Assembly: GCA_964016885.1 (NCBI GenBank)
Contig: OZ024742.1
Coordinates: forward strand, 232,934,001-232,998,000
Reading direction: 5' to 3'
DNA: 64,000 nt
From: Eledone cirrhosa
Lineage: Eukaryota
This document shows positions 1 to 53,900 of the stretch, one piece after another. Below the pieces are notes generated by a model. That model saw nothing but the letters and a program-made list of their open reading frames with translations. It was not told where the DNA came from and did no database searches. A program made the position numbers and the translations under genes. How positions within the stretch are numbered: position 1 is the stretch's first letter; each line of letters begins with the position of its first letter.

Positions 1-2090
1 CATCCTCCATCCCCACAAGCCGACACCTGCAGCACTTGCAGCACCACGAACAGAGGAAGAGGGGCCGGAACAGTTCGGGGTGCGGCTGCTTCCACCACCA
101 CACCTGCGTTGGCTTGACGCGTCGAGCTTCCAGTGCGCTCGCAGCGTGGAGATGCAGAAACTATCGCTTCCTCTTGTCTGTCCAGCCACGGCCGTCTGGC
201 ACACCACCAGATGAGACAGCGAGCTTGCCTGACGCCCAAGCCTCGCTGGTCAACATCGCTCGGCTCAGGCGGCTCCGGAAATCCCACTCAGGATCCCGAG
301 AGCGGCCCGGGTGCCGGTAGCCGATTACCTCGCTTCCTCGATTGAGAGCGCTCTGGACTCCAATCGTGCCAGCGACTGGGAGTGACTCTTTTATTTCGCC
401 CCACTGGCCCTCGGCCTCTCCAGCTCTGGCGCTGACCGAGGCGGTCGGTCGACAGCAGCCTCCGTCAAGGCCAATGTTTCGTCCTTTGGGCAGGCGCCCA
501 TTCCAAGCGTACCTAGGGACGCCACACGCCCCACCCTCGGGTACTCCCACTCCTTCACCCCTGAGGCCAGCGCCAAGCGTTTGCGTGACCGCGTAAATGC
601 CAAATTAATCATGGGTGATGTCTCGGCCGTAGTCAGAGTGGTTGCCTCAGAGGACACTGTCCTCCAACCCACCGAGGAGGTCCTGGCTGCCCTACGACTC
701 AAGCATCCTGAGCCACCCGCTGATCTCAGACCCATACGCCCACCCGACCCCAACTTGCTCCTTGTGGCTTCCGACGCAGACATCATGTCCGCCATCAAGT
801 CCTTCCCAGCCAGCAGCAGCGGAGGTGCTGATGGTCTCCAACCTGGCCACCTGAAGGAGTTGCTATCCCCACTCTCCGCTGAGACCGGGCGCCGCCTTCT
901 GAGTGCAATTGTGGCACTCACCAATAGGCTTATCCATGGCGCCCTGGACCCTCACGCCCGTAGCCTCTTTTTTGCGGCTAGCCTCACCGTTCTCAGGAAG
1001 AAAGAGGATTGCATACGCTCCATCGCTGTGGGCAATGTCTTCCGGAGGCTGGCTGCCAAGGTGGTCTGCAGGTCCATAACACCCAAACTGGGTGAGGAGT
1101 TCAGTCCGGTGCAACTGGTGTGGGCGTGTCCGGTGGGTGTGAGGGGGCCGCACATGCAACCAGGCAGTTCTTCAACAGCTGCCCACCGGAATCGGCATCC
1201 AGAGACTCCAGGCACCTCATTGTCAAGGAATGCTTTTACCTGCTTACACCGGGACCATCTGCTCGATGCCTTCCTCAGCCGAGCCCCCTCTGCCTACCCG
1301 CTGGCCTACCTGTCGTATGGAGCCCCGAGCATGCTCCTTGCTGCTGATACGGTCATTTCTTTGGCCACTGGGGTCCAACAGGGCGACCCTTTGGGCCCCC
1401 TCCTGTTTGCCCTTGGTATAGACCACATCGCCCGGAGTATCACGGCTCCTCTCAACGTTTGGTATCTGGATGATGCCACGTTGGGCGGGTCCGTACAGAC
1501 TGTCTGCCATGACCTACAATCGGTGGTTCCTGCCCTGGCGGGAATCGGCCTCCAGGTCAACTCGGCCTAGTCGGAGGTGGTGAATGTTAGCCACGATGCT
1601 GAGAGCTTTGCAGCCTCCGTCTCGGACGTGCGGTCCATTCTTCACCAGGTACAGGTGACCCCCAAAGAGGATGTCCTCATCCTCGGGTCACCGATCCACC
1701 CGTCGGTCATCCGCTCCACCATCAACTCCAAGCTTCAACAACTCCAGACCCTCACGAGCCGACTGGGCTTGATCGACGGCCACCCAGCTCTCTTTCTGCT
1801 GAGGAACTGCTTCGCCATGCCGAAGCTCCTCTATACCCTTCGCAGTGCTCCGTGTTACACCCACGCATCTCTCCTCACTGACCTCGATACGTGTATCTGA
1901 GCAGCAGCCGAGGAATATGCAACGTAAGGTTTGACGACATTGGATGGCAACAGGCCACTTTACCGGTCAGGTATGGCGGCCTTGGCCTCCGGTCCCCGAT
2001 CTCACTGGCTTTGCCGGCGTTTCTTTCGTCGGTAACCTCATGCCGCGTCCTCGTCAGCAGGGTTCTCCAAAACACAATAGAACCCTCTGT
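1..2090 (+). mobile_element. CRE-clade non-LTR retrotransposon fragment (RT), disrupted
   Basis: GC-rich island. Motifs SGGADGLQP, IRSIAVGNVFRRLAAK, LGVGVSGGCEGAAHA (frameshift near 1120), GVQQGDPLGPLLF, WYLDD, QATLPVRYGGLG. Stop at 1568; 3' truncated. Confidence 0.85.
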
Positions 2091-9184: not shown

Positions 9185-9528
9185 ACATATATACATGTAT
9201 ATATTGTACCTTTTGATTTTTAATTTGTAATTTTAATGTTGGTAAAAGTATATTATTATTATAATGTATTATATTGTGTTATATATAATTCCTGCTCTAT
9301 ATAACCAAATTTGTTTAGATTTAGGTTAGTTGCTTTGGACTATATTTGTAATATGGTTCTTAATGTTATCTACATCCTTAGTTATTCTTATTATATATTT
9401 TTATTATTTTTATTTTTATTTTCATTTTTATTATTATATATTTTTGTAAGACATTAGTGTATGTACACTCCATATTCTTCAGAGTTTCTGGCTTGTATCT
9501 GCCGATATTACCTCTTGTTGTTTTGATT

Positions 9529-9566
9529 GCCCTGATGAGTCCTTAATAGGACGAAACATTGTCGGC
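9529..9566 (+). ncRNA. Minimal type I hammerhead ribozyme
   Basis: gcc CUGAUGA GUCC uuaaua GGAC GAAAC auu GUC ggc; fully canonical core. Confidence 0.92.
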
Positions 9567-9635
9567 TAATAAAAACTTTTGATGTATTAAAGGATTTTTT
9601 GTTTTACTCTCTTAATATATATATATATATATTTA

Positions 9636-10809: not shown

Positions 10810-11560
10810 GTAATCCTATGAGAGACTTAAACCCCAATGGAATGACTTGCATGTTTGGAGAGCAGATTTAAGTTAAATGAAAGGAAAGACGTTAACATTG
10901 CGAACGTGTGTGTTGTGAAATGTATGATATATGCATGTGTGCGTGAATGTAAGTGTGCTTAGTGGGATGTTTGTATGTGTGTGCATGAATGTAAGTTTAT
11001 GTAGTGAAAGGTGTGTGCGAATATTTATATAATAAAATGGGGAAAATATGTGTGCGATATATGTATGTATGTATGTGAGTCTATGTGTGTTTGCCTAGTG
11101 AGGACATAGATTTAATTTGAAAGAAAGAATGAAAATGGCCGCTGGGATGTTGGAATACAGGCTTTAAATTAGCCATTCTAGTGCACTTCTTTCCATTCGA
11201 TTATTGATCCTCGGTTTTAAATGCTTGATTAAGTGGGCTTCCTTAATTCTCAGCGTACGTATACTGCGTTCTGTAGCTAAGATTGGGGGGGGGGGGGTAA
11301 TGTTGTCCCGGTTTCCACATTTGATGATGTGTTTGCACAAGGAAGAGGAGTTGGTGTTAACATGCTCTTTAATACGGAGATGTAACGGTCGAATAGTGCT
11401 GCCTATGTATAATAGATTGCATTTGTGACATTCTGGCCTGTATACTACGTAGGTATGTAGGCCACAATGAGTGTTGCAGATAGGGCAATTGGCTAGGGTG
11501 CATCCGTTATCCTCGTTGGGAGGGGGGGGGGGCTTGTTGAGAGGCATCTTCGCAGAGAAG
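10770..11560 (-). mobile_element. Penelope-like element 3' end: Cys linker, GIY-YIG endonuclease, 3' UTR with hammerhead
   Basis: ORF 11164-11631: CTLANCPIC...VVYRPECHKCNLLYIGSTIRPLHLRIKEH...KEAHLIKHLKPRIN. Confidence 0.9.
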
Positions 11561-11927: not shown

Positions 11928-12204
11928 CTAAAATTAGACTACTTCTATTATATATATATATATATAGAGAGAGAAACACACAGATACATGCGGACACATA
12001 CATATACATGAATATATCCACATCCATCCTTGAGTTAATGGTGCCTCGATATAAATACCCCTCCGCCTCCGTGGTATTTTTTTCAGGGTTATAAGAGGGT
12101 TAGCTCTGTTTCTTGACCGCTGTATCACGTGATTGACTCCCCCTCCGCCTTTCGGGATTTTATCTCGCATCTTACAGGCGTGTTTTGAAACCCTTAATGA
12201 GGTA

Positions 12205-12294
12205 TCCTCTTGATAAGTCGGCAGACCTCACAAAAATTCTATATCTCTGTGATGTAGTGTTTTTGCATATGCCACGAAACTACGTAGTCGAGGA
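12205..12294 (+). ncRNA. Hammerhead ribozyme, U3-A8 variant with extended stem II
   Basis: uccuc UUGAUAA gucggca...ugccac GAAAC uacgua GUC gagga. Confidence 0.8.
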
Positions 12295-12364
12295 ATCTAG
12301 AAGCAGTTTAGGTATGATATATCTTATTACTAATTATATCTAATGTTTCTTCTCTCTTCATAAT

Positions 12365-12416
<52 letters not shown>

Positions 12417-12457
12417 CGAACCATAAGTCAATTGCATGAACTCATATTCCTTTATTT

Positions 12458-12513
12458 ACTGCTATATATATTTCGATGATAGCCATTGAATGGCTATGAC
12501 CTCATCAGGCAGT
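12458..12513 (-). ncRNA. Type I hammerhead ribozyme (AUA site)
   Basis: acugc CUGAUGA ggucauagccauucaauggcuaucauc GAAAU auau AUA gcagu. Confidence 0.82.
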
Positions 12514-13176
12514 TAGTCAGTTCTTAGATATGCCAGCTCTGTGTTTATAGTGTTGATGGTATCAGAGCCTTGGGACATATGAGCTTGTTAGGAATAATTT
12601 AATGTTGTCAGCAGGAATAGTCTTGATTCTCATTGGTCAGTTTGTAGATGGTAGTAGGTTGGTATTTGACCTCAAAGAGGCAGGTGGTGTTGTAAAGTTC
12701 AAACCGTCAGGCAAGATGACAATAGTTCCATATGACTGATTTTCACAAAAGGCATTCCTGATCAGATATATATTCAAATAAGGTTAATAGTATGAAATAG
12801 ATACTACAGGTCATTCTTAAATTGAGGAATTTATATGGAGTGGTGCTACTGAAAAATATGGTTGGAGTAGAAAATTTACCAATAAAAAGACTTATGTAGG
12901 TTGGCTTGCACTACACTCACACCCACCTCCACAGACATACACACACACACATCCACACATACAAAATGTGGGGTGGTAATACTTAATATAATGGTTAGAA
13001 TCCTAATTGAGCAGGGAGGCCGCACCTCACAGGTTTATAGCCCCACTGTGGGCCGATATACCCCTCATGATAGTGAGGGTTATATAGGCCCACCGTGGGG
13101 CTATAAGAAAAACAGAGAATTTTCAACTGAGCTCAAAGAAGAACAGAGAATTTTCAACTGAGCTCAAATACAAATA

Positions 13177-13615
13177 TATTACATAGAAAGAAGTGTGTTA
13201 CACAGAGAGATGTGTGTAAAGAATTATTACATGTGAGTTTAACCGTTACTGTATGGAAAACAACACCTACAGGTTAACAATTAAATAGAAAGAACCCTAA
13301 GTCAGAATCAAATCTCCGAAGTAGAGTTTTAAATTACCAACCTTATAACTATAAGCTTGCTGATACGAATCTATTTCGTTTCGCCACTGAAATGTGTAGT
13401 GTAAAAGTCCACAGGTTCCTCAGTCAGCAAGTGTGGAATTGCCCGCCACACATCTAGCCTAATGGAAAGAGAGAACGCAAATATACACGCTGCCCAGAGC
13501 AGGGCGAAAAAACGTGTTATTTGCATCAAATAACGGCTCTCGTGAATTGAGGAAAATGCTAGAGAGTAATCTTTACACACATCTCACTGTGTAACACACT
13601 TCGCTCTGTGTAATA
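13177..13615 (-). mobile_element. Non-coding hammerhead module with about 50 bp terminal inverted repeats
   Basis: 13177-13230 is inverted at about 13565-13615; ends in (TA)n. Confidence 0.65.
13356..13431 (-). ncRNA. Type I hammerhead ribozyme with long stems I and III
   Basis: cuugcuga CUGAGGA ...(34 nt)... GAAAC GAA auaga UUC GUA ucagcaag; 8 bp stem I. Confidence 0.82.
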
Positions 13616-13796
13616 TATATATATATATATATATACATATATATAAATAATAATAATAATAATAATAATAATATTTATACTTATATATATAATCTATATA
13701 TAAGGGTAATATTGTGTATTATCCAATTACCAGTCAGATAATTAGCTCAATGTAAAATATCAGATATATTACAGGAGCAGAAATACAACATATATG

Positions 13797-13839
<43 letters not shown>

Positions 13840-13840
<1 letters not shown>

Positions 13841-14561
13841 CGGCATCCGGTGGCTGATAAAATACTTTACGGATTACACCTTGACCGTGGAATCAACCAC
13901 CATCCTAGGATTTTACCAACCATTCCACCACATCTTCTTACGGAATCACCTTTATGACTCACCCACACACACAAACATTTTTTTTTCCCACACGCCACCT
14001 ACTTAAACACCACACACACACGTGCGTTCCACCACATATTTACACATTCAGCCTCCGGATTCCTCTCCCCCCACCCCTCTATCCACACACGCATACACAC
14101 TCCGACCTACACCCCACCCAACACACACCTCTTCCTGAACATGCAACCCCGTTCTTCCCCCAACCCTTGCTTTCACATACACACACACACGTACACCTAC
14201 ACACACACACCACCTTCAGCCCTCCCCGCTCGGACACCCCGTCTCTCTCTCCCCACTCCACCCGCCACCACCCCTACACGCCCCACACCCTTCCACCACC
14301 TGTTTTACCCCATTTTAATTTTAATTTGATCATGCTTTTATTTTTAATTTCATTTGCACCGTTTCCTCCCACCCACTTTTTGCTATATGTCTCTCCACCA
14401 CTCCCCTACACACCCTTTGAACTCTCTTCCCACACACTTTTCACCTGAAGAAGGGCTTATGCCCGAAACGTCGTTCCCCACCACCACCCCACTCTCAAGA
14501 GCGTGAAATTAATAAACATTCGTTGTACTGCCTCTTTGTCTTGTTCCTGTTCAAATTTTCC

Positions 14562-14565
<4 letters not shown>
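13840..14565 (+). mobile_element. Penelope-like 3' end (ORF tail, C/A-rich UTR, hammerhead, AATAAA)
   Basis: WLIKYF...RGIN-like tail, then CTGAAGAAGGGCTTATGCCCGAAACGTCG and AATAAA; bounded by (TA)n on both sides. Confidence 0.6.
14439..14508 (+). ncRNA. Hammerhead-like motif (stem I interrupted)
   Basis: uuucac CUGAAGA a GGGC uuau GCCC GAAAC guc GUU ... gugaaa. Confidence 0.65.
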
Positions 14566-14633
<68 letters not shown>

Positions 14634-14660
14634 TACATATATACATACATATATATATAC

Positions 14661-14745
<85 letters not shown>

Positions 14746-14984
14746 CAATATATAGAGAAACACACAGATACATGCGGACACATACATACACATGAATATA
14801 TCCACACATATCCCTGAGTTAGTGGTACCAACCTCAACCGATGTTGCTCTATGAATAACTGGGACAGAACTATCCCAATGGATTAGACTGATTCAGTATC
14901 AGAGCTATAAAGTACATTATGAAGAGAGAAGAAACATTAGATATAATTAGTAATAAGATATATCATACCTAGCTGTTTCTATAG

Positions 14985-15078
14985 TCCCCGACTACGTAGT
15001 TTCGTGGCATATTATGCAAAAACACTACATCATAGAGATATAGAGCCCTTGTGAGGTTCTGCCGACTTATCAAGGGGA
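14985..15078 (-). ncRNA. Hammerhead ribozyme, U3-A8 variant (paralogue of 12205-12294)
   Basis: ucccc UUGAUAA gucggca...ugccac GAAAC uacgua GUC gggga; compensatory stem I change relative to the paralogue. Confidence 0.8.
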
Positions 15079-15106
15079 TATCTAATGTTTCTTCTCTCTT
15101 CATAAT

Positions 15107-15172
<66 letters not shown>

Positions 15173-15334: not shown

Positions 15335-15400
15335 TATTTTATCTGATGAGGACGTACTGCTGAAATAGCTCAGTACCTCTGAAATATGTATAATAAAATA
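15335..15400 (+). ncRNA. Type I hammerhead ribozyme (AUA site)
   Basis: uauuuuau CUGAUGA ggacguacug...caguaccucu GAAAU augu AUA auaaaaua. Confidence 0.8.
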
Positions 15401-15486: not shown

Positions 15487-15525
<39 letters not shown>

Positions 15526-15553
15526 ATCAAAAGATGGTTAAATGAGTTCCATG

Positions 15554-15624
15554 TATTTTATTATGCGCATTTCAAAAACAAATATCATCATGCAATAACA
15601 TTTGTGTTTTCATCAGATAAAATA
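15554..15624 (-). ncRNA. Type I hammerhead ribozyme (left palindrome arm)
   Basis: Reverse-complement copy of 15739-15809. Confidence 0.8.
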
Positions 15625-15738
15625 GGAGGACATGATATGAAGGTTAAAAAACACTTGTGGATAGTGCAGTTTTAAATCAACATTTCATTAAAACTGCACT
15701 ATCCACAAGTGTTTTTTAACCTTCATATCATGTCCTCC

Positions 15739-15809
15739 TATTTTATCTGATGAAAACACAAATGTTATTGCATGATGATATTTGTTTTTGAAATGCGCAT
15801 AATAAAATA
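15739..15809 (+). ncRNA. Type I hammerhead ribozyme (right palindrome arm)
   Basis: uauuuuau CUGAUGA aaacacaaauguuau...augauauuuguuuuu GAAAU gcgc AUA auaaaaua. Confidence 0.82.
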
Positions 15810-16375
15810 CATGGAACTCATTTAACCATCTTTTGATCTTATATATTATGTATACTCCAGTCCTACAAACTGTAGAGCGGGTGATGTATTGTTTCCTTGA
15901 GCAAGACACTTTATTTCACATTGCTTCAGTTTACTCAGCTGTAGAAATGAGATGATAGGACTGGGGTCCCTATCATTCCACTGCAAAGTGATCGTGTAGG
16001 TGCCACGGCAAAAAAAGACCCAGCCCACACTGTAAAGTGGACGTGTAGGCGCCACGGTAAAAAAGCACCCAGCTTTCACTGTAAATGAGGTTGGTGTTAG
16101 GAAGGGCATCCAGCTGTAGAAATCAAGCCAGAATCAGTTCCCGTCCCACCCTTGCAAGCAGGGAAAAGCGGACGTAAAAATGATGATGATGATGATGAAT
16201 ATATATATATATACATTATGTATGAGCGAGACTCAGTCTCCCGACCATTCCCGCATCAAATGGAACAAAACCGTCTAACCCATGCTAGCGTGGAAGATAG
16301 ACGTTAAACGACGATGACTATGATGGTATATACACATATATGTATCTCTCTCTCTATATATAAATATATATATAT

Positions 16376-30500: not shown

Positions 30501-33500
30501 CTTTGTGATAGCTGGAATAATAATAAATAATAGTAGTGATGGTAGTGATAATAATGGTTTCTACTTTAGGCACAAGGCCAGCAATTACCCAGTGCAATAG
30601 TGATAATAATGGTTTATTATATAGGCACAGTGAAGGCGCATGGCTTAGTGGTTAGAGCATTGGGCTTGCAATCGAAAGGTTGTGAGTTCAATTCTCGGAC
30701 TGGGTGATGTGTTGTTTCCTTGAGCAAGACACTTTATTTCACATTGCTCCAGTTTACTCAGCTGTAGAAATGAGTACCAGCCTGCCCGCCCAGCCAGTGG
30801 GATGGCGTTATCTTATGGCTAAAACAGCACGACGTGCTGTGACTAGCGGTGCCGAATGGCGCCCGACAGACTGGTCGGTCAAGGTAATCAAGGTGATATA
30901 GGCACAAGGCCAGCAATTTTGAGGGAGGGGGGAACGTCGATTCAACCGACCCCAGTGCGTGACTGGTACTTTATTTTATTGACCCCGCAAGGATGAAAGG
31001 CAAAGTTAACCTCGGCGGAATTTGAACTCAGATCATAAAGGGCCGTAAATCTATGTTGCAAAACATGGTGTTTGATGCTTTACCGATATTGCCAATCCAC
31101 CACCCCCTTTAATGGTAATAATGATAATAATAATCATCATCATCAGGTGACCTCGCCGAAATTGACTCAACAATTGATCTCCACATGAGTCTGTCGTTCA
31201 TTGCTGTTGCCAAGTCATGGATTTCAATATCAGAGTCTCTGGAGATGACACCAGGATAGGAGAGCTTGTGCCCCCTGTTATTAGTGACTGCTTGTAGTTT
31301 CCAAAGCACTAATGGGGACACAGCCTCATAGGTGGCATGATGACAGTGGCCAGAAAATCTTATTCTCCTTTTACGTACAATGGCAGATATGCATCGATGT
31401 AGGTGAGTGTAGATGCTATTAAGGCGCTTTTGTTGTTTGGATGAAAGCATCCATGTTTCACTTCGAAGTAACAATTCCATGGTTGAATTATTACTTGGAA
31501 GAGTCTGATTTTGGTGTGGTTGGAAAGATTTGTGCGCCAAACTCAATCTATCTTGTTGCAAGCTGACCAATAGAGCATAACCCACCTCACTCCTCTACTG
31601 ATGGACATCATCATCATCATTTTTATGTCCGTTTTTCCAGACTTGCATGGGTTGGACAGGTCCTTTTCAGCACAACATCTCTCCACTCACCACATTCCTT
31701 CATCATCTCCTCTGTACATAGCTTGCACAGCTCTCACAAGCCATTCTTCTACACCTAATTTCCTTAAAGACCATCAGATAATAGATTGAGGTATTCTGTC
31801 AAAGGCCTTCTCTAGATCAACGAAAGCTAAATATAGTGGCTCATTCTTGGCTAGGAACTTCTCTTGTAGTTGCCTCACTAAAAAGAAGGCACCTGTGGTA
31901 CTTTCCCCGGGTATGAAACCAAGCTGCATCTCATCTAATTTGACTCTTTCTCAAATTAGCTGTGCAATAACTCTTTCTGTCACTTTCATAACTTGGTCCA
32001 TTAGTTTTATTCCTCAAACGTTGCTCCTTTCTAGAGCATTGCTTTTGCCTTTGTAGCAATTTACAATTATACTGCTGTGCCTGTTATTGTGTATGACCCT
32101 CCTGTATTACCTGATTGACTATGCAGGTTACTAGTTCGACTCGGCTACTTCTCCCAATGCTTTTAAAATCTCAGCAACTATTCCTGATAGTCCTGCAGCT
32201 TTACCATTCTTCATCTCTTTGATTGCTTTGACTCTATAATTGTCAACTTCAATAGCTGGTCCTTCTGTTCGGTAAGATGGGAGTAGTCTCTCTTCTCTTC
32301 CCATTCATTCTCTACATTCATCAGTCTCTCATAGTAACATTTCCAGGCCTCTTTCATTTGAACATCAGTGGTGATAAGTGCACCAGTGTCATATCTAACA
32401 CTTTTCCCCAACAACATCCTGATTTACACTGACACACTGCTTTGCAACATGGAACACCTCACATCTCTGGTCCTCATGTCTTAAGACATTGGCAAACTTT
32501 CTTTTCTCAGCCTCTCTCCAAGTTGTGTATACATGTCGTCTAGCTTCTCTCTTAGCTTCCTGGTACTGGTCTCTGCTTCCCCCATTTTTCCAGTCTTTCC
32601 ACACCTGTCTCTTGGCTTTAATGGCTGTATCCACTGTGCTATTCCACCACCAGGTCACCCTCTGTCTGGCTGATGCTTTACTCCAACCACAAGTCTCATC
32701 AGTAGTTCGCAGAAAGTTGTCATGCAAGAATTCACAAATGTCTTCTATGTCATATGTATCTAGCTTGTCACCAAATGCATTCCGTAGGGCCTTTCTAAAT
32801 CTATATTTAACCAAAAGCTTCCAAACCCCCCATTTCCATATTTTCCTGCATATCTTGTTCCGTCTTGTGTCTTTTCTGACTAACCATCTTGTGTTGGGCA
32901 GCACATTCTTCCCCAGAGAAGGCTTTAGTATTTATTACAGTGCGATTATCTTGATTTACTAGTAAGAAATTAATTTGGCTTGTGTGTTCGCCTGATTGAT
33001 ATGAAATCAGATGGCTAGCCAGTTTCCTGAAGTATATGTTGTAAATGGTTAGTTTATTTGCATCATAAAATTCCAGGAGCCACATTCCCTCTTCATTTCT
33101 TGAGCCATAATCATAGCTGAACTCCACTGAATCTATTCTGGTACTGTCCAACATGTCTATTGAAGTTGCCTGCCAGGATGATGAGATCTCTTTCATTAGT
33201 AATTGAAGTTGTCTGCAACAGTTTCTTAGTCAAGGGGTCCTCGCACATGGCTACTCGAGCTACTGCACTACCAAGCACAGCACTAACATGATTACCATTA
33301 AGTAATAGCATGAAGAATTATAAGACAGAGTTAACATCCCAGGGAGAATCCTTGGGAGGAGTGAAAATCAAGAGAGGTATCTTCCAAGGAAATAGTTTGT
33401 CTTCTTCATTGTTTGTCCTTACCCTCATACTCTTGTCCCTCATATTGCAAAGAGTGAGGGCAGGATACAAACTGGAAAGAGGAGAGGTTACCATTACCCC

Positions 33501-42500: not shown

Positions 42501-45500
42501 TTCATTTGTTTTATACATCATCATCATCATCATCCCTACCATTTAAGGTCCATTTTTCTATGCTAGCATGGGTTAGACGAGTTATACTGTTGTGAGACAA
42601 ACCAGATCAGATGAACATATCTTGCTCATACAGAACTGATTTTGGCTTTGGATGCCCTTCCTAATGCCAACCACATTTACAGTGTGGACTGAGTGCTTTT
42701 TGCTGTGATTCCTACACGACCACTTTACAGTGTGGACTGAGTGCTTTTTGCTGTGATTCCTACACGACCACTTTACAGTGTGGACTGAGTGCTTTTTGCC
42801 GTGATTCCTACACAACCACTTTACAGTGTGGACTGAGTGCTTTTTGCTGTGATTCCTACACGACCACTTTACAGTGTGGACTGGGTGCTTTTTGCCGTGA
42901 TTCCTACACGATCACTTTACAGTGTGGACTGGGTGCTTTTTGCTGTGATTCCTACATGACCACTTTACAGTGTGGACTGGGTGCTTTTTGCTGTGATTCC
43001 TACATGACCACATTACAGTGTGGACTGGGTGCTTTTTGCCGTGATTCCTACACGATCACTTTACAGTGTGGACTGGGTGCTTTTTGCTGTGATTCCTACA
43101 TGACCACTTTACAGTGTGGACTGAGTGCTTTTTGCCGTGATTCCTACACGACCACTTTAGAGTGTGGACTGAGTGCTTTTTGTCGTGATTCCTACACGAC
43201 CACTTTACAGTGTGGACTGGGTGCTTTTTGCCGTGATTCCTACACGACCACTTTACAGTGTGGACTGGGTGCTTTTTGCTGTGATACTTACACGACCACT
43301 TTAGAGTGTGTACTGGGTTCTTTTTGTTGTGACACCTACATGACCACATTACAGTGTGGACTGGGTGCTTTTTGTCGTGGCACCAAAGGTTTCTAATTTA
43401 TGCAATGGCCAGCACTCTAGGGAAAGGGGAAAATTGATTAAATCAACCCCAGTACTTGATTGATACTTTATTTTATTGATCTTGGAAGGATGAAAGGCAA
43501 AATTGACCAAAGCAGGATTTGAACTAAAAAAAAGAACCAAAACAAATACTGCTAAGCACTCTACAAGGACTGTCAACCCACCACCCTCAGTTGTTTTACA
43601 TAATAACAATACCCAGTTCATGATTTTGTTTCTATTTTCTAATTCTGGTTATTTCATCAATCTACAATGAGATGACTTCTTGTACAACAGCTATGAAACC
43701 TGAACATCAGTCATTGAAAAGAGACCCTATAAACATTTTGCAGCAGGAATTTAATAACCTAATCTTATTAAGAAGAACCAAATTGTAAGCAAACCAACCT
43801 ATACACTGATTTACACCCATTAAACTTCATATATATAACTAAGACTGAGCATGCCTCAACTAGAACATAAACAAAACTATGATATCCATGAACACAAGCA
43901 AATGCAAATTATAATCCTACATTCAACCCTACCGACAAATCCCTTTCAGCCTAACAACCAACCTACTCCGATTACTGGTATGTGTTTGATTGACATCACC
44001 AGGCTACAGCTGTTGTATTACACAGTTTTTATATTCCCCTGCATCAACTACAACTTAATTACATAAATGGCATAGTACTCACAAATAATCAGTCAATCCC
44101 CAGAAACTACCACTGATCCATACCCCCAACAAACCTGACCTGGTATAGAGACACACATGGAAGCAAACCTCAGGCTCATCTACCAGAACTTGAATTGACC
44201 CAACCAAGACCCTGCAATCACCCATTAATCCAATCCAAAACATATGTTTATTGAACTGATAAATTTGAAAAGAATGAATGAAGTGAAGCTATAAGCTCAG
44301 CAATATATAAGTGGAATTTTACTATTTGCTATGACTTTAATGGTGTTCTCACATATTTTACAGTCAAAATTGCATCATAACAGCTGTATTTTATTTTTAG
44401 AGCTAGAAAATATTTCAACTAAAACAGGTTCACATCCTATACAGAGTTCAAATACTCCATAAATTTCAATAATGTTTAGAAATTTGGACAGTGCTCACCA
44501 CAGCTAATATATGAGAAAAACAGTCTGTATGATTGGTTAGCATTCAAACTACAATTCTTTCCAACCATTCTCTATATACTGACAAGTTATATCCCCTCTC
44601 TGCCTAATTTACAGTTACTATAACACCACATCATCCATTGGCCTATCTTCTTTTACTCTTGTATTAAACTCTCTGCTGAACCTATTTTCCTAACAAATAG
44701 TTTTTACATAACCACCACCACGTTACTCTATAGGCAGGAGGAGAGTAACGTGGTGGTGGAACAGTAAGCTGGAGGAGTCAATTAAGGCCAAAAAGCAGGC
44801 TTGGAAAGTATGGCGGGATGGGGGAAGTAGAGAAGACTATCAAGTGGCCAGGAGGAAAGCTAGGAGACAAGTATACTTCGCAAGAAGGGAAGCAGAGGAA
44901 AGAAAGTTCAAGCATGTTCTACAACGCAAGGACCAAAAACGTGAGGTGTTCAGGATTTCTAGGCAATGTGTCAAGGAAAACCGTGATATTGTCGGGGAGA
45001 AGTGTGTCCTTAATGATGATGGCGTACTTGCCATTCACTGCCGCTGATAAGAAGGTAGCTTGGAAGTGTCACTACGAAAGGCTACTAAATGAGGAGAATA
45101 AATGGGAGAAGGATAGTCTCCCCCAGATCGATCCAATAGAGGGACCAGCAGTGTTAGTCGAAGGTAGTATAATAAGTAAGGCAATCAAAGATATGAAGAC
45201 GGGTAAGGCGGCTGCGCCTTCGGAAATAGTTGCTGAAATGCTGAAAGCTTCTGGAACGGTGGGACACACCATGGTCACCCGGATAGTAAACCAAGTCGTA
45301 CAGAATGGGGTTGTTCCGAAGGACTGGCGTAGCAGCATCATCATCATTAACTGCTACAAGGGTAAAGGAGATGCCCTCAATAGGGGAAACTATAGAGGCA
45401 TTAAATTAATTGACCAGGTCATGAAGGTCACAGAAAAAGTAATAGCGCAACTAATCAGAGAGCGAATTGATCTAGATGAAATGCAGTTCGGGTTTGTGTC

Positions 45501-48500
45501 AGGTAAAAGTACCACAGACGCTCTTTTCATTGTACGAAAACTACAGGAGAAGTACCTAGCTAAAAGTAAACCCCTATACTTAGCTTTTGTCGACTTGGAG
45601 AAAGCCTTTGACAGAGTCCCCCGTTCAATTATCTGGTGGGCTCTTAGAAAACTAGGTATTAACGAATGGCTTGTGAGAGCTATACAAGCCATGTATAAAG
45701 AAACAGTCAGCAAAGTTAGAATTAACAACGAATATAGTGAAGAGTTTAGCGTAAAAGTTGGTGTTCATCAGGGCTCCGTTCTTAGCCCCCTACTATTTAT
45801 TATTGCCCTTCAGGCTATAACAGTGGAGTTCAAGACCGGCTGCCCATGGGAACTCCTATATGCAGATGATCTAACGCTCATAGCTGAATCAATGGCTGAA
45901 CTAGAGAAGAAAATCCAAACATGGAAGCATGGCCTAGAATCAAAAGGCCTTAAAATTAACCTGTCTAAGACTAAAGTTCTAGTTTGTAGGAAGGAAAATA
46001 GGGCACCGGTCCCATCCGGGAAATAGCCATGCTCAGTGTGTAAGAAAGGAGTAGGTAGAAACTCCATTTTATGTCCCAAATGCAAAGTATGGGTGCATAA
46101 AAGATGTAGTGGGATCACAGGTAAGCTAACTAAGAACATAGATTTTATATGTGGCCGGTGCTCTGGTGCAATAAGTAGCAGCAAGTGCCCACAGAATACT
46201 AGCTCATTCCATTGCACAGATGGTTCTATAGAAATAGTGGACACCTTCCGTTACTTGGGTGACAAAATCAGCAGTGGTGGAGGGTGCTCTGAAAGTACAG
46301 TAGCTAGAGTCAGAACTGGATGGAAAAAGTTCAGAGAGCTTATACCACTATTAGCCGCTAAAGGGTTCTCTCTAAAAATGAAAGGCAGGCTGTATGATGC
46401 CTGCATACGAACAGCAATGTTACATGTCAGTGAGACCTGGGCATTGTGTGCAGAGGATATACGCAGACTGGAGAGGAACGAAGCTTGCATGCTCCGCTGG
46501 ATGTGTAATAGTAATATACGTGAACGGCAAAGCATAAACGAACTAAGGGAAAAATTAGAAATAAGAGGGATTAGATGTTGTTTACTCGAGAGAAGACTAT
46601 GTTGGTATGGTCACGTGATGCGCATGAAAGACGACAGCTGTATAAAAAAGTGCAGGGCAATAAAAATAGACGGTAGCCACAGAGTAGGCAGACCCAGAAA
46701 AACCTGGGACGACTTGATAAATTCTGACCTCACACACTTACACCTCTCCAAGACAATGTCAGTGGACTGAGATCTTTGGCGCTAGACAGTAATACAGAAG
46801 ACCCGCCTTACCTAAGTATAAAGTGAAACCTACTACAGTCAGTAGGCACCTCTAACAAAAATACACCCCCGTCCCACTACCCCCACCCCTTTTAATGTAA
46901 AGTTATGTTGGTACCACACCATCCAGTCCGAAACAAATGAGGTCGTGTAGGTGTCACGACAAAAAAACACACAGTCCACGCTGTAATGTGGCTGTGTAGG
47001 TAACACGGTAAAAACCTCCCAGTCCACACTGTAAACGTGGTTGGTGTTAGGAAGGGCATCCAGCCGTAGAAAACCGCCAGACAGTCCTATACGAGCAAGA
47101 CAACCATTCTTGCCTCAAGTGGGAAAACTCCCGTCCAAACCCATGCAAGCGTGGAAGATGGACGTTAAACGATGATGATGATGATGATGATGATGATGAT
47201 AACCAACATTATGTCAAAGTCTTACAATGCTTTATTGTGGAACAACTTTATGGGGTATAATTACTGAAGTTTTTATATCTCCCAATTGATATTCAATTTC
47301 TAACAATTCTTAGACAACAAGAATTTTATTATCTTTAGTGGTTTTTATGAAGATTGTTATTTTTCCAAAGGTTTAATCAAATGTTTTTGACACTTAAAAT
47401 GAAAACTATAAGTATTACTTTATATTCAAATTCATATTAATCTTTAAAGTAAATAAAATTCTGATGTATACTTATTTATATGTACCCAGTACATTGAAAA
47501 GTGGTTGGTAACAAGCCTAATAATTACTCATAAAAAATATATATAAAATAAAAAATCTCTTAAATTCTTGATATAGTGGGCTTGTGATGATATAATGTAG
47601 AAACTGATATCATTTTGCCAAGCCTACTAATACAAAATATATTAAAAAAAAAGAAATAGGTTGAGATTTTTGACTTACCGAGCCTGTGAAGGGATAATGT
47701 TGTAGATACGATATCTTGAGCCTTCTGCCAACATATTTATAAGATCTTCTGTTGGTTTCCATATGGTCAAAATTGTGTCTAAATATACAGTCATAACAGA
47801 TAATATATTTACTGATATGAAATGTTGCAACAATGCAGGATTAAGATTTCATAATGATGTGTATCTCATACAGGCAGTGGACTGGCAGAATCGTTAAAGT
47901 ATCCAACTATCAGACAAAATGCTTGCAGTATTTAGTTATAATATTTTGCATTCTGTCTTCAAATCTTGCTTTTCATCCTTCTGGCATTGATAAGATCAAA
48001 TGACATTAGCAAACATTAATCATGTCTGGTTCATGAATAACCAAACAAAATGCATCCAAGATGTGAATGGAATCTTAACGAAAGACCAGGACATTAGTTT
48101 AGTACAAAGGTTCTCAACGGGGGACGTTTTGGAGCAAGGGGGCATTGGGGGAGGGGGCGTTTGAAGCTTTGGGGGATGCTGTAAGACTATTTACTTAGGT
48201 AAATTTTATAAGTCATATTTGTACGTCTCTGAGACAGCCAGTATTTGAAAGAAGAAAATGAAGAAAATAGATAAAAGAAGCTTGTCAACGAATTCCTTAG
48301 GGAGATAAAAGAAAAACAAAAGAAATCAAAGAAAATGAAAATAAGGACAACTTTGACAACAGTTACAAGAACAACAGAAGCAATGGTGATGAAAGGTGTG
48401 GGTGTATACATATACATACATATGAACATACACACACATGCATACGTACATACATACACACACAGGCCTGCGTTAGTGTTTGATGAGGTTGAGAATCTGG

Positions 48501-50895
48501 TCAGCTTTCAGCCAGAGCTGTCGTATTTAATCTCCCTAGGAAATAAAATCTGGAGTCAAAATTCTTTCCTTACCAAAAAAAAAACATAAATCATGTCAAC
48601 ATCCTTACACACTTAAATATAAATGCATGTATATATACAAATGTATAAATGCATAGCTATATACATAGGTAAATGTATGTAGATTTATATATATATATAT
48701 TATACACACACATATATATAACACGGTAAAAACCTCCCAGCCCCACACTGTAAATGTGGTTGGTGTTAGGAAGGGCATCCAGCTGTAGAAAACCCGCCAG
48801 ACAGTCCACGCTGTAATGTGGCCGTGTAGGCAACACGGTAAAAACCTCCCAGCCCCACACTGTAAATGTGGTTGGTGTTAGGAAGGGCATCCAACTGTAG
48901 AAAACCCGCCAGACAGTCCTATGCGAGCAAGACAACCACTCTTGCCTCAAGTGGGAAAACCCCCGTCCAAACCCATGCAAGCGTGGAACACGGACGCTAA
49001 ACCTGATGATGATGATGATGATGATATATATTTTTTCTTTTTTCAGTCTGGTCTACCTCAATGTAATCTTGTAAAATCCATAGAGAGGTTCTGTGTTTCG
49101 CTGCATAAATTCTTTAGATACAGAGTCAGATATTAGGTATTAAATTAACAATAAAAATAAAAACAAAGTTATAAAGTAACTTAACTTTTTTCTTTTTATT
49201 TTCATTGTTAATTTGATAACACACACACACATATATACATATATATATATATATGCGCAGTGTGACAAGAAGCTTGCTTCCCAACCACATGTTTCTGGGT
49301 TCAGTCTCACTGCCTGGCCCGACCAAAGACCTGTGAGGATTTGATAGACCGAAACTAAAAGAAGCGCGTTGTATATGTATATATGTATATATATCTGTGT
49401 GTGTATTTGCGTTTGTGTTTGCCCTCCCACCAATGCTTGTTGGTTTGTTGACGTCCCCATAACTTACCAAGGTGATGCTCCAGCATGGACGTTGTCCAAA
49501 GACAGAAAAAAACTAAAGTATATATATATGTGTGTCTGTGTGTGTGTAGAAGAGGGGTCTCAAACTGAAGGACATAAAAGGGCCATTACGTCCTGGAGGA
49601 GAGACACAGTGGGCCAAACGTGGTGGTGGGTGATGATTTTCACCAGTTATAATCATTTCTACTATAGGCACAAGGCATAAAATTTAGAGTTTAGGGTCCC
49701 GTCTATTACATCGATCCCAGTTCACAACTGGTACTTAATTTATCGACCCCAAAAGGATGAAAGGCAAAGTTGAGAACGGCGGAATTTGAACTCGGAATGT
49801 AAAAACGGAAGAAATACAGCTAAACATTTCGCCAGATGTGCTAACGATTCCACCAGCTCACCGCCTTATTTTCACCAGTTATAATGGAATCTGAAATATT
49901 GGTTCTACCATGGGCCATAGAAAAGTAGTTCGCGGGCCGCAAGTTTGAACCCCCTGTTGGAGAGATAGATAGATAGATAGACGTGTACCAAACACACACA
50001 CACATTTCTTACTCTCTCTATATATATATGTATATATATATATATGTATATATATGTATATATATATATATATATGTATATATATGTATATATATATGTA
50101 TATATATATATGTATATATATATATATGTATATATATATATTATATATATGTACTCTCTCTATATATATATATATGATAGGAATTCACTTCGCCAAATTT
50201 CATTGCTTGCTGTGTACCCTCGATATACATGTATACGTAATGTACGGATTTCATTTCTCTCCCTCCACAAATCTTAATTCTAGCGTATTTTCAAAACAAT
50301 CCATATTTCGTATCAAGTCCAAATAGCCAATCTATCGCTAAAACAAACTACATTTTCTGTTTCTATTAATTGTTAAATACGAAAGTTTTTGGGCGTATTT
50401 AACAGAACAAATTTTGTATTTTTGTTAATCGCTTGTTAAATGCAAGGACCCCATTCAATCATTACCTTTTTGCATGTATACGTAATGTACGGATTTCATT
50501 TCTCTCCCTCCACAAATCTTAATTCTAGCGTATTTTCAAAACAATCCATATTTCGTATCAAGTCCAAATAGCCAATCTATCGCTAAAACAAACTACATTT
50601 TCTGTTTCTATTAATTGTTAAATACGAAAGTTTTTGGGCGTATTTAACAGAACAAATTTTGTATTTTTGTTAATCGCTTGTTAAATGCAAGGACCCCATT
50701 CAATCATTACCTTCTTGCTAGCTATTTTCAAACCTTAATTCCTAACGTATTTTCAAACCTCAATCCCTAATTCTAGCGTATCTTCAAAACAAAAAAAAAA
50801 CAAAATCCTTTCCTTCTTCCTTCTTCGAAGGCACGGGGCGGTCAAACGCCTAACACACACAGCCATCATGTGGCCACCCCCCCTCTCTCTCTCTC

Positions 50896-50941
<46 letters not shown>

Positions 50942-53900
50942 ATAGGAATTCACTTCGCCAAATTTCATTGCTTGCTGTGTACCCTCGATATACATGTATA
51001 CGTAATGTACGGATTTCATTTCTCTCCCTCCACAAATCTTAATTCTAGCGTATTTTCAAAACAATCCATATTTCGTATCAAGTCCAAATAGCCAATCTAT
51101 CGCTAAAACAAACTACATTTTCTGTTTCTATTAATTGTTAAATACCCAATATCCCTCCCTCCCACCCCCACGCACCACCATGGCTATTACGTGGACCAAT
51201 CATAAAACAGAGCCCCCACGCATCACCAGTATTATTACGCGGACCAATCAGAAACCAGAGGCCTATACTATCGCTTGCCTGGTTGCCTTTCGATATATGA
51301 TGGATGGATGGACTGCGGAATCCTGGAGAGTGGAGGTGAGAGAGAGAAAAATCTGGACGCTCAGCGACAATGCCAAAGATAAAGACAAATTCACCTCTTG
51401 GACGAGAATGCGAGCACTCCTCATTGTTTCGACCGCGGACGGCTAACATAACCCCATCGCCCCCCGCCCCCCACTCCCAAACGCAATCCAAAACTTCAGA
51501 GTTGGTACCATAAATGTAGGCACCCTAAAGGGTCGCGCTAACGAGGTTGTAGAAATGCTTGAACGTAAGGAGGTCGATGTTTGTTGTATTCAAGAGACCA
51601 GGTGGAGGGGTGGGTCTGCTAGGTTCATTGAGGGTAAAAAACGATGTTATAAGCTTTTCTGGGTGGGAAACGACGATGGGCTGGGTGGAGTAGGAATCAT
51701 GGTAGCAGAAAAGTGGGCAGATAAGATAATAGACGTAAATAGAGTGAACGACAGAATAATTAAAATACGACTTGTCCTCAATAGAACTACGGTGACAGTA
51801 ATATCTGCGTACGCACCCCAATCCGGACTGCCCGGCACTATAAAAGACAGATTCTATGAGACACTGATGCTAACTACCTCCCAAATATCCGACAGTGACT
51901 ATATAATTATCGCAGGCGACCTAAATGGTCACGTTGGACAACATTGTGACGGCTACGACGAAATCCATGGAGGCTATGGGTTTGGTACTAGAAATGAGGA
52001 AGGCTCCAGAATCCTGGAATTCTGTGATGCAAATAACCTAACTATCTGTAACACTAACTTCAAAAAACGTGACAATCACCTGATCACCTATAGATCCGGG
52101 GAACACACAAGCCAGGTAGATTATATCCTTACCAGAAGACGTGACAGAGTGTCTGTTGTAAACACTAAATCCCTCCCCCATGAAGAATGCACCTCCCAAC
52201 ATAGACTGATAATTAGCGACCTCATAGTCAGGACGAGACGTACTCGACAACAGAAGAGGACTATCCTCAGGAGGAAAATATGGAAGCTAAAGGACCCCAC
52301 AGCCAGGAATAAATTTCAAAGCATATTACTTGATGCTTTCGACAGTAAGGAAGAACATTTAGAGTCGGACAATATAGAGGGAGAGTGGGAATTTCATAAA
52401 AAGCATAAAAAGCATAAACGAACTAAGGAAAAAATTAGAGATAAGAGGGATCAGATGTTGTTTACTCGAGAGAAGGCTACGTTGGTATGGACACGTGATG
52501 CGCATGAAAGTCGATAGCTGTATAACAAAGTGCAGGGCAATAAAGATAGACGGTAGTCACGGAATAGGCAGACCTAGAAAAACCTGGGACGAGCTGATAA
52601 ACTCCGACATCACACACTTACACCTCTCCAAGACAATGTCACTGGACCGAGATCTTTGGCGGTACTCAGTAACAGAGAAGACCCGCCTTACCTAAATATA
52701 TAGTAAAACCTACTCCTGCCAGTAGGCATCTCTAACAAAATACACCCATGCAAGCGTGGAACACGGACGTTAAACGTTGATGATGATGATGATGATGACT
52801 TGAGGGCGGTTGACCGGGCTGGTAGCTGCTAAATGGTCAGCCGCCCTCATGTCTCTGATTTTCAGCACTATGGATTTTGTCTATTATATTTCTTTGTTAT
52901 ATTTCGAATACCTGATGATGTCACCGGATTCATACTGAACCCGGTCATTGAAATGATCATAGTATAATAAACCTGTAGTTAGAGTTGCCTCCCTTGTTAT
53001 GATGTCAAGTCAAAGATTGCCTTTGCTAAGGGATAGTTGGACTGCAGCCTCCGAACTGATAACATCTTCCTAGGGACCCCCCATCAAAGGGCCTAGGGAT
53101 GGACATGCATTCCGATCCTTTCTTACTGCTGTTTGCTAACATATAGCTCCAGGTATGAACTAACATTTATGCACACACCAATCCATCAATAAAACAATTG
53201 TTACATTGATAAGCTCTGTTGTTTTTACTCTGATACAAATGCATACACTACCAATAACTTCCAGTGAATTCAATGGAGTCATAACATATAAAAAATAGAA
53301 GATATTCCCATCGGACATTGACTAGCTATCCTTCTATACCTGATGAACATATCTTCTAAAGTGGTGACCTCCGACGATAAATCAAGAAAACGCAGCCTAT
53401 TTAATTTCGCCATTCGCTTTAATGGTAACATCGAATGACTTATTAAACTGTTGATTCGCGCAGACAAATAAAACGAACACATAGACACACATTGAACCTT
53501 TCGTTTGGACAAACTTTTTCTCACCTACGTGACGCTATTTCGGACAACAACAAAAAAAAAATTCCTCTAACAACATTCGACATGGAGTTTTTCTTCGACA
53601 CTGTCTACAACAAAAAATAGAAGTAATCTTTTTCTCAGCAGCAAACAAACAATAAAAGATTTTGCTCTTCACCTCACGTCGCGTTTTTTTTTCGGACAAA
53701 AGAATCCTCCCAGCAACTTTGGACATCTCCAACTAATCCATAAATTCTCTCCGAAACAAACAAACACCAAACTCAATTGTTTACATCGTTTAAACGTGTT
53801 TCACTCACTGGATATATCCTTCATTCTTCTCACAACGAACACTCAAAAAAGACTTGGACTCCTGTATTCTTATATTCAACATGTCAATTTTGATGAACAT

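What the first reader, a model, noticed from the sequence alone, without database searches (positions are those of the whole stretch)
12205..15078. Paralogous hammerheads with U3-A8 core, long stem II and compensatory stem I change
Seen: both copies read UUGAUAA instead of CUGAUGA, i.e. C3-G8 replaced by U3-A8, which keeps the known tertiary Watson-Crick pair. Stem I is UCCUC/GAGGA in one copy and UCCCC/GGGGA in the other, a double compensatory substitution. Stem II carries a roughly 45 nt insert and stem III is the palindrome ACUACGUAGU. Inference: structure has been maintained by selection, and consensus-based searches would miss this family.
Basis: partly seen in the sequence, partly recalled or inferred. 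Interest (0 to 1): 0.8.

Follow-up and report, generated by a model that had tools for sequence, protein, structure and literature searches.

The report
Retroelement hammerhead ribozyme with long stem
Two copies of a repeated animal retroelement end carry a self-cutting hammerhead RNA motif whose swapped core pair is already known from Penelope-like retrotransposons, so it is a new variant (with an unusually long side hairpin) of a known kind rather than a new ribozyme.

Summary
Two type I hammerhead motifs (12205-12294 +, 14985-15078 -) have a U3-A8 core, 5-bp stem I, 10-nt palindromic stem III and a 59-63-nt stem II; 0 of 60 shuffled windows gave such a motif, and Rfam misses both. The core swap is not new: U3-A8, the same core heptamer, palindromic helix III and opposite-strand pairs are published for hammerheads of Penelope-like elements (PLEs; PMC4209133, PMC3088659), and this scan noted a similar motif on other DNA. 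Both copies lie in short head-to-head insertions flanked by (TA)n, with two alternative 3' ends about 165 nt apart and a 64-nt intron-like segment: PLE pseudo-LTR anatomy. Reads and contigs show a highly repeated family. No reverse transcriptase gene is linked, so PLE membership is inferred. Folding favours dimer, not monomer, cleavage; no cleavage was shown. The 'double' compensation is one base-pair swap (chance 0.03-0.14); support for selection is modest. What differs from published examples is the long stem II (at most 23 nt in 56 published representatives). New variant of a known kind; modest interest.

The parts
12205..12294 (+). Hammerhead copy 1 (type I; U3-A8 core; predicted cleavage after C17 at 12289)
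12210..12216 (+). Core 5' strand of copy 1, U3 at 12210 and A8 at 12215
12224..12269 (+). 46-nt stem II extension: 7x4 internal loop plus 14-bp hairpin (12231-12265); most variable part of the ribozyme in family reads
12279..12288 (+). 10-nt palindromic stem III (monomer hairpin +1.5 kcal/mol; self-duplex -12.9)
14985..15078 (-). Hammerhead copy 2 (opposite strand; C17 at 14990; stem I pair swapped to C-G; 50-nt extension)
11964..12045 (-). Locus 1 inverted arm: distal 3' end 'A' of the element, abutting (TA)n at 11949-11963; 89% identical to 14748-14829
   Evidence: joints and loose ends
12046..12204 (+). Locus 1 direct arm upstream of the ribozyme ('X'); repeated in organism A; no Pfam hit in the open frames tested
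12295..12369 (+). Tail 'T' from ribozyme to the proximal 3' end, followed by (TA)n 12369-12411; holds an intron-like donor at 12312
14911..14984 (-). Tail 'T' of copy 2 (70 of 74 aligned positions identical to copy 1)
14748..14910 (-). About 160-nt extension (Y plus A) beyond the proximal end, running to the distal 3' end at the (TA)-rich tract 14562-14747
   Evidence: A-Y junction seen as loose ends at 12045 in X1, X5, X6, X7
14905..14968 (-). 64-nt spliceosomal-intron-like segment (AG|GT donor, branch-like site, pyrimidine tract, AG acceptor); inferred, no spliced read seen
   Evidence: only hit in the window on both strands, 0 of 2000 shuffles; pattern written post hoc
15078..15111 (+). Locus 2 direct arm: last 34 nt of tail T, joined head-to-head to the inverted arm over a 3-nt microhomology, followed by (TA)n

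Best explanation
The two motifs are the hammerhead ribozyme of the pseudo-LTR (3' end) of one highly repeated Penelope-like retroelement family, or of its non-autonomous derivative, left in two short 5'-truncated, head-to-head insertions into (TA)n microsatellites. Shown from sequence: the fold, the U3-A8 pair, the shared layout (TA)n - inverted arm ending at the distal end A - junction - direct arm ending at the proximal end T - (TA)n, and high repetition. Inferred from known PLE biology: the element RNA is reverse-transcribed from two internal start sites (here about 165 nt apart) on both strands of a nicked AT-rich target, which gives the inverted arms; the ribozyme cleaves after C17 mainly as a dimer through the 10-nt palindromic stem III (tandem copies in one precursor) and/or with protein help, slowly; U3-A8 simply preserves the tertiary 3-8 pair; the long stem II is an appended, tolerated hairpin. 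These two genomic copies, being opposite-strand and truncated, are probably inert passengers.
For: Fold and chance control. U3-A8 minimal hammerheads in PLE pLTRs, opposite-strand pairs and small palindromic helix III are described in PMC4209133; 2 of its 56 representatives have U3-A8, one with the same core heptamer, and at least 4 have 10-nt palindromic stem III (supplement Fig. S3 text). Inverted 5'-truncated arm, a tail on one end only and (TA)n targets are PLE hallmarks (10.1101/2021.04.23.441226 passages); two internal RT start sites, nicking of both strands, AT-rich targets and a protein-assisted hammerhead were shown for a Poseidon PLE (PMC11167929). Both loci show this layout; other genomic copies join arm A to 12156, 12266 and 12326 and join T to A colinearly (joints). 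An intron-like segment follows the ribozyme, and pLTR introns are known in some PLEs (PMC6765202 passage). Monomer stem III pair probabilities are 0.05-0.09, whereas two molecules plus the palindrome duplex score -56.3/-63.9 versus -47.0/-54.6 kcal/mol for two MFE monomers (rough additive estimate). Six further small C3-G8 hammerhead motifs lie within 9.5-15.8 kb, 5 of them 30-90 nt upstream of (TA)n, and a GIY-YIG remnant at 11167-11505.
Against: No RT or GIY-YIG frame is linked to either copy (0 of 5 frames hit Pfam); the GIY-YIG remnant points away and is separated by other repeats. No whole genome was available, so no full-length partner was found. No cleavage or expression data. The 165-nt extension is far longer than the 30-40-bp tail reported for PLEs. 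[quoted passage not shown] The best run holds only 0.45 of the stretch's words, so the reads may be of another individual or species.
Confidence: 0.75

Rival explanations
1. The family's ribozyme is a decayed or catalytically negligible relic: the fold is inherited from an active ancestor, but the family spread without needing cleavage, and the apparent conservation reflects young copies.
For: Hammerhead mutants did not affect insertion by a purified Poseidon PLE in vitro and no reads ended at its cleavage site (PMC11167929). The predicted MFE misfolds the core and lies 1.1 kcal/mol below the hammerhead fold. Tail (3 of 74) and end A (2 of 78) are nearly as free of variant rows as the core (0 of 33). 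73 variant rows were hidden.
Against: A compensated 3-8 pair with an otherwise perfect core; 0 of 7 substitutions break pairs; a diverged copy type breaks similarity just outside the ribozyme (loose ends at 12196 in X7, 135 reads, and 12294 in X6/X7, 170/154 reads; may be one or few loci).
Confidence: 0.12
2. It is a non-LTR retrozyme-type element: a short non-coding unit that is cut to monomers, circularised and re-inserted, with the long stem II helping the rod-like circle.
For: Non-coding, low GC, about 400-nt insertions with a type I hammerhead; animal retrozymes are proposed to derive from PLE pLTRs (10.64898/2026.07.22.740005, first part read).
Against: Retrozymes are defined by tandem direct repeats, mostly with canonical loop-loop hammerheads (PMC7229834 passages); here the two copies are dispersed and inverted, no direct tandem of the unit exists in the window, and none of the 9 joints shown links the tail back to the ribozyme's upstream side on the same strand.
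Confidence: 0.08
3. The stem II extension is functional: its internal loop or hairpin replaces the usual loop I-loop II contact or binds the element's protein, making a monomer-active or protein-switched ribozyme.
For: The extension folds into the same 14-bp hairpin in both copies (-13.2, -14.0 kcal/mol); 5 of 7 listed variants at its paired sites keep pairing and one more (12238) closes a mismatch; the internal loop sits 6 bp from the core, about where loop II normally lies.
Against: 5 of 7 is near the 57% expected from random transitions; the majority allele at 12257 breaks a pair in this register; the 3' side of the internal loop is variable (12266, 12267, +3 nt); neighbouring C3-G8 families also have long stems II of 27-36 nt, so length looks tolerated rather than special.
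Confidence: 0.05

Closest known systems
U3-A8 minimal hammerheads of Cercyon PLE pLTRs in Schistosoma mansoni (Cervera and De la Pena 2014, PMC4209133; parts 1-2 of 4 of the text and parts 1-2 of 3 of the supplement read)
   Same: Type I; U3-A8 core (one representative has the identical heptamer); 4-5-bp stem I without a defined loop 1; G10.1-C11.1; mostly solitary truncated copies, some pairs on opposite strands.
   Different: Those lack helix III and have an extra unpaired base after A9 and a 4-8-bp helix II; here stem III is a 10-nt palindrome, there is no extra base, and stem II is 6 bp + internal loop + 14 bp.
PLE hammerheads with small palindromic helix III (Aedes aegypti, Drosophila, Saccoglossus representatives in PMC4209133 Fig. 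S3)
   Same: 10-nt palindromic stem III predicted to pair between two molecules; bulged base in helix II as in D. virilis; nearby intron as in D. virilis Penelope.
   Different: Those have C3-G8 and short stems II; in D. virilis the intron ends at the 5' side of helix I, here the intron-like segment starts about 22 nt 3' of the cleavage site.
Poseidon PLE of Anolis carolinensis (PMC11167929; parts 1-2 of 4 read)
   Same: Hammerhead upstream of two alternative 3' ends, AT-rich targets, an ATG inside stem II shortly before the cut site (12269 here, 21 nt before; 26 there).
   Different: It is autonomous with an ORF starting in the ribozyme; here no continuous frame follows, and the distance between the two ends is about 165 nt rather than 30-40.
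Metazoan non-LTR retrozymes (PMC7229834, passages; 10.64898/2026.07.22.740005, part 1 of 5)
   Same: Short, non-coding, type I hammerhead, repeated.
   Different: Not tandem here; no canonical loop I-loop II motif; inverted insertions into (TA)n.

Membership tests
Type I hammerhead ribozyme | Core with U4 G5 A6, A9, G12 A13 A14, A15.1-U16.1, H17 | tested here: met
   both copies
Type I hammerhead ribozyme | Watson-Crick pair between positions 3 and 8 | tested here: met
   U3-A8; accepted natural covariation, active in vitro per PMC3088659 section 8
Type I hammerhead ribozyme | Three helices, open end in stem I | tested here: met
   stem I 5 bp, stem II 6 bp with bulge, stem III 3 bp + 4-nt loop or 10-bp duplex; stem III weak in the monomer (P 0.05-0.09)
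Type I hammerhead ribozyme | Self-cleavage after position 17 | not testable with these tools
   no RNA holder listed; needs assay
Rfam Hammerhead_1 (RF00163) | Score at or above gathering threshold | tested here: not met
   no hit to either copy
Metazoan PLE min-HHR consensus (Cervera and De la Pena 2014) | [quoted passage not shown] | tested here: not met
   G10.1 follows A9 directly and a palindromic helix III is present; fits instead the paper's palindromic-helix-III variants
PLE hammerheads (broad) | G10.1-C11.1 pair, short helix I, palindromic 15.2-16.2 region | tested here: met
Penelope-like elements | ORF with telomerase-like RT and GIY-YIG endonuclease sharing this pLTR | tested here: inconclusive
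   none linked in these 365-405-nt truncated insertions; no genome to search
Penelope-like elements | Inverted 5'-truncated arm, tail on one end only | tested here: met
   both loci and other copies (joints); tail about 165 nt, longer than reported
Penelope-like elements | Partial-tandem pLTR arrangement | tested here: inconclusive
Penelope-like elements | Retained spliceosomal intron in the pLTR (some families) | tested here: inconclusive
   intron-like signals at 14968-14905, post hoc pattern, no spliced reads
Non-LTR retrozymes | Tandem direct repeats each with a hammerhead | tested here: not met
   window only; no such joint among the 9 shown

The most novel reading that the evidence does not exclude
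A very high-copy, non-autonomous PLE-derived family uses a U3-A8 hammerhead whose 46-50-nt stem II extension is a functional module (substitute tertiary contact or binding site for the partner RT), with an intron and two RT start sites about 165 nt apart downstream; its thousands of natural variants would be a ready covariation and activity library for asking what PLE hammerheads do in retrotransposition.
Probability: 0.1. Interest if true: 0.55.

Novelty: new variant of a known kind. Interest (0 to 1): 0.27.

Why it matters
The role of hammerheads in Penelope-like elements is still open (dispensable for insertion in vitro, yet conserved). A repeated family with a compensated core, a long stem II and a clear two-ended insertion signature adds a test case and shows that Rfam annotation misses such families. 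It does not change hammerhead chemistry: the U3-A8 swap and dimer-type stem III are published.

Tried and rejected
Whole-genome copy collection and R-scape-type covariation: no genome held. Metagenome scan with a 19-nt motif: 4 loci, all chance matches without hammerhead context (similarity limited to 20-24 nt). Viral contigs: 0 matches. Expression: no RNA holder listed; no evidence either way. Earlier notes by sequence and by place: none. Phased test of the stem I swap in other copies: neither T12208C nor A12291G is among the 40 rows shown, 73 rows hidden, so the copy-2 state is at best a minority form and covariation could not be tested. A-to-I editing as source of the three adjacent A/G differences: not supported, changes in X1 are balanced (A>G 12, T>C 11, C>T 13, G>A 7 places). 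Linked coding frame: six-frame reading and Pfam on 5 open frames gave nothing; each frame has a stop within about 40 nt after the putative acceptor. A weak candidate at 48484-48568 and an A-like match at 48405-48478 are low-complexity chance. The paper on PLE hammerheads cleaving as dimers (Lunse et al.) is not held; I rely on the review PMC6765202 (passages). Searches for prior description: hammerhead + octopus + ribozyme, 8 papers, 7 listed; U3-A8/C3-G8 terms, 2 papers; long/extended stem II terms, 5 papers, listings only; no listed title or abstract start describes this family, but most subscription papers and repeat libraries (Repbase, Dfam) were not searchable, so absence from print is not established.

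Full report
Observation. The sequence and alignment show two related type I hammerhead motifs: 12205-12294 on the + strand and 14985-15078 on the - strand. Every core position is canonical except that C3-G8 is U3-A8 (12210, 12215). Stem I is 5 bp, stem II opens with G10.1-C11.1 and has 6 bp with one bulge, then an asymmetric internal loop and a 14-bp hairpin (46 and 50 nt inserted), and stem III is a 10-nt palindrome before the GUC site (C17 = 12289 and 14990). A scanner for this architecture found these 2 motifs in the window and 0 in 60 shuffles (written after seeing the motif). Rfam hit neither copy but weakly hit a canonical neighbour at 9526-9570.

Variation between the two copies. There are 7 substitutions and 2 indels over 90 positions. 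Two substitutions swap one stem I pair (U-A to C-G); three A/G changes give G-U pairs and one turns G-U into G-C in the extension; one is in the terminal loop; both indels are in the internal loop. So no pair is broken, but the 'double compensatory' change is one event, with a chance of 0.026 if only stem I is counted and 0.14 over all 28 pairs. In copy 2 the 5' strand of stem I lies 2-3 nt from an inversion junction, so templating from the 3' strand during insertion cannot be excluded, though a single junction over a 3-nt microhomology is simpler.

Context. Both copies are parts of short insertions bounded by (TA)n. Locus 1 (11964-12369) reads: inverted end A, segment X, ribozyme, tail T, (TA)n. 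Locus 2 (14748-15111) reads: an inverted arm holding A, Y, T and the ribozyme, then the last 34 nt of T in direct orientation, (TA)n. The element's sense order is therefore X - ribozyme - T - y - a, with two alternative 3' ends 74 and 239 nt after the ribozyme. A 64-nt segment with donor, branch-like site, pyrimidine tract and acceptor spans the proximal end (14968-14905); it is the only match to my pattern in the window on both strands and occurred in 0 of 2000 shuffles, but the pattern was post hoc. No coding frame is linked. Within 9.5-15.8 kb lie six further small hammerhead motifs with C3-G8, with stems II of 13-36 nt, and a GIY-YIG remnant (PF01541, E 5.9e-5, above cut-off) that belongs to another insertion. 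The window is an AT-rich, microsatellite-rich animal genome with LINE remnants; it looks octopod to me from recalled repeat types, which no call tested.

Other copies. No genome was held. Of 8 runs listed (best share 0.45; none on record as RNA) I laid 4 on 11968-12368 at 80% likeness. In X1, 927 contigs were laid, with summed word depth 151,000-399,000 over the ribozyme ends versus 5.6-18.7 for the 8 long single pieces shown; this is no copy number but indicates a highly repeated family. Organism B (X5) has one 151-nt contig over 12204-12343 with 8 differences. Loose ends at 12045 match Y in all 4 runs, and joints link arm A to 12156, 12266 and 12326, so head-to-head insertions with variable junctions recur. 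Of the 40 variant rows shown (39 positions; 73 rows hidden), 0 fall in the 33 core, stem I and stem III positions, 1 in the other 11 stem II positions, 13 in the 46-nt extension, 20 in X (159), 3 in T (74) and 2 in A (78) (core versus extension p=0.0004, core versus all else p=0.03). So U3-A8 is the prevailing state, and the extension is the variable part; but T and A are about as quiet as the core. Of 14 rows inside the ribozyme, 6 are at unpaired sites, 5 keep a pair and 3 break one; 5 of 7 in the extension is close to the 57% expected for random transitions. X6 and X7 are RAD libraries of one study and sample few loci; their loose ends at 12196 and 12294 show a diverged copy type whose similarity stops at the ribozyme's borders.

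Mechanism. Shown: fold, layout, repetition. Inferred: as a monomer stem III is unstable (pair probabilities 0.05-0.09; the MFE misfolds the core), while the palindrome forms a -12.9 kcal/mol duplex, so two molecules in the double-hammerhead form are favoured by about 9 kcal/mol in a rough additive estimate. This matches the dimer model for PLE hammerheads (PMC4209133; PMC6765202). The two 3' ends and inverted arms match the two internal RT start sites and two-strand nicking of AT-rich DNA shown for a Poseidon PLE, whose hammerhead needed protein and was dispensable for insertion in vitro (PMC11167929). The two copies here face opposite ways and cannot dimerise in one transcript; they are most likely inert products.

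Comparison. U3-A8 was reported as a natural covariation in 2011 (PMC3088659) and in PLE pLTRs in 2014, with about 1,300 hits in S. mansoni and opposite-strand pairs. Of 56 representatives in that paper's Fig. S3 text, 2 have U3-A8 (one with this heptamer), at least 4 have 10-nt palindromic stem III, and the longest stem II is 23 nt by my reading. The motif works like a PLE dimer-type hammerhead; it does not meet the strict min-HHR consensus (no extra base after A9, helix III present) or the retrozyme definition, and PLE membership lacks the ORF test.

Verdict. Real feature, correctly seen, largely explained. New are the combination with a 59-63-nt stem II, the long two-ended tail and the intron-like segment in an apparently undescribed family (searches; limited library). 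New variant of a known kind; interest 0.27.

Noticed in passing
window 9529-9566 (+), 12458-12513 (-), 14440-14478 (+), 15338-15397 (+), 15554-15624 (-), 15739-15809 (+): Six more small hammerhead motifs with C3-G8 cores in 6.3 kb, of at least four different families, five of them 30-90 nt upstream of (TA)n; three families have palindromic stem III and 27-36-nt stems II. The one at 14440 has only a 2-bp stem I. A local pile-up of PLE-type ends in microsatellites.
   Followed up: partly
window 15517-15846: Perfect inverted repeat (159-nt arms, 12-nt spacer) carrying two identical hammerheads head-to-head: a very young inverted insertion, or an assembly artefact.
   Followed up: no
window 11164-11505 (-): GIY-YIG endonuclease remnant with upstream cysteines (Pfam PF01541 above cut-off), probably the C-terminus of another Penelope-like element.
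   Followed up: partly
window 12369-12411: The (TA)n after locus 1 is shared tail-to-tail with a different hammerhead-bearing element inserted from the other side (12412-12513).
   Followed up: no
window 13035-13106 and 13168-13222/13570-13624: A 72-nt imperfect palindrome and an inverted pair of 55-nt arms ending at (TA)n: probably another inverted-arm insertion.
   Followed up: no
window 581-1900 (+), 44818-46770 (+), 51555-52517 (+): Non-LTR retrotransposon remnants: an RT-like frame, an RT (PF00078, E 1.7e-32) and an apurinic endonuclease frame.
   Followed up: partly
window 30639-30702 (+): tRNA-like match just above the Rfam gathering score, likely a SINE head.
   Followed up: no
window 42956-43396 (+): Open frame made of a 17-codon tandem repeat; probably a minisatellite of SINE-tail type.
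   Followed up: no
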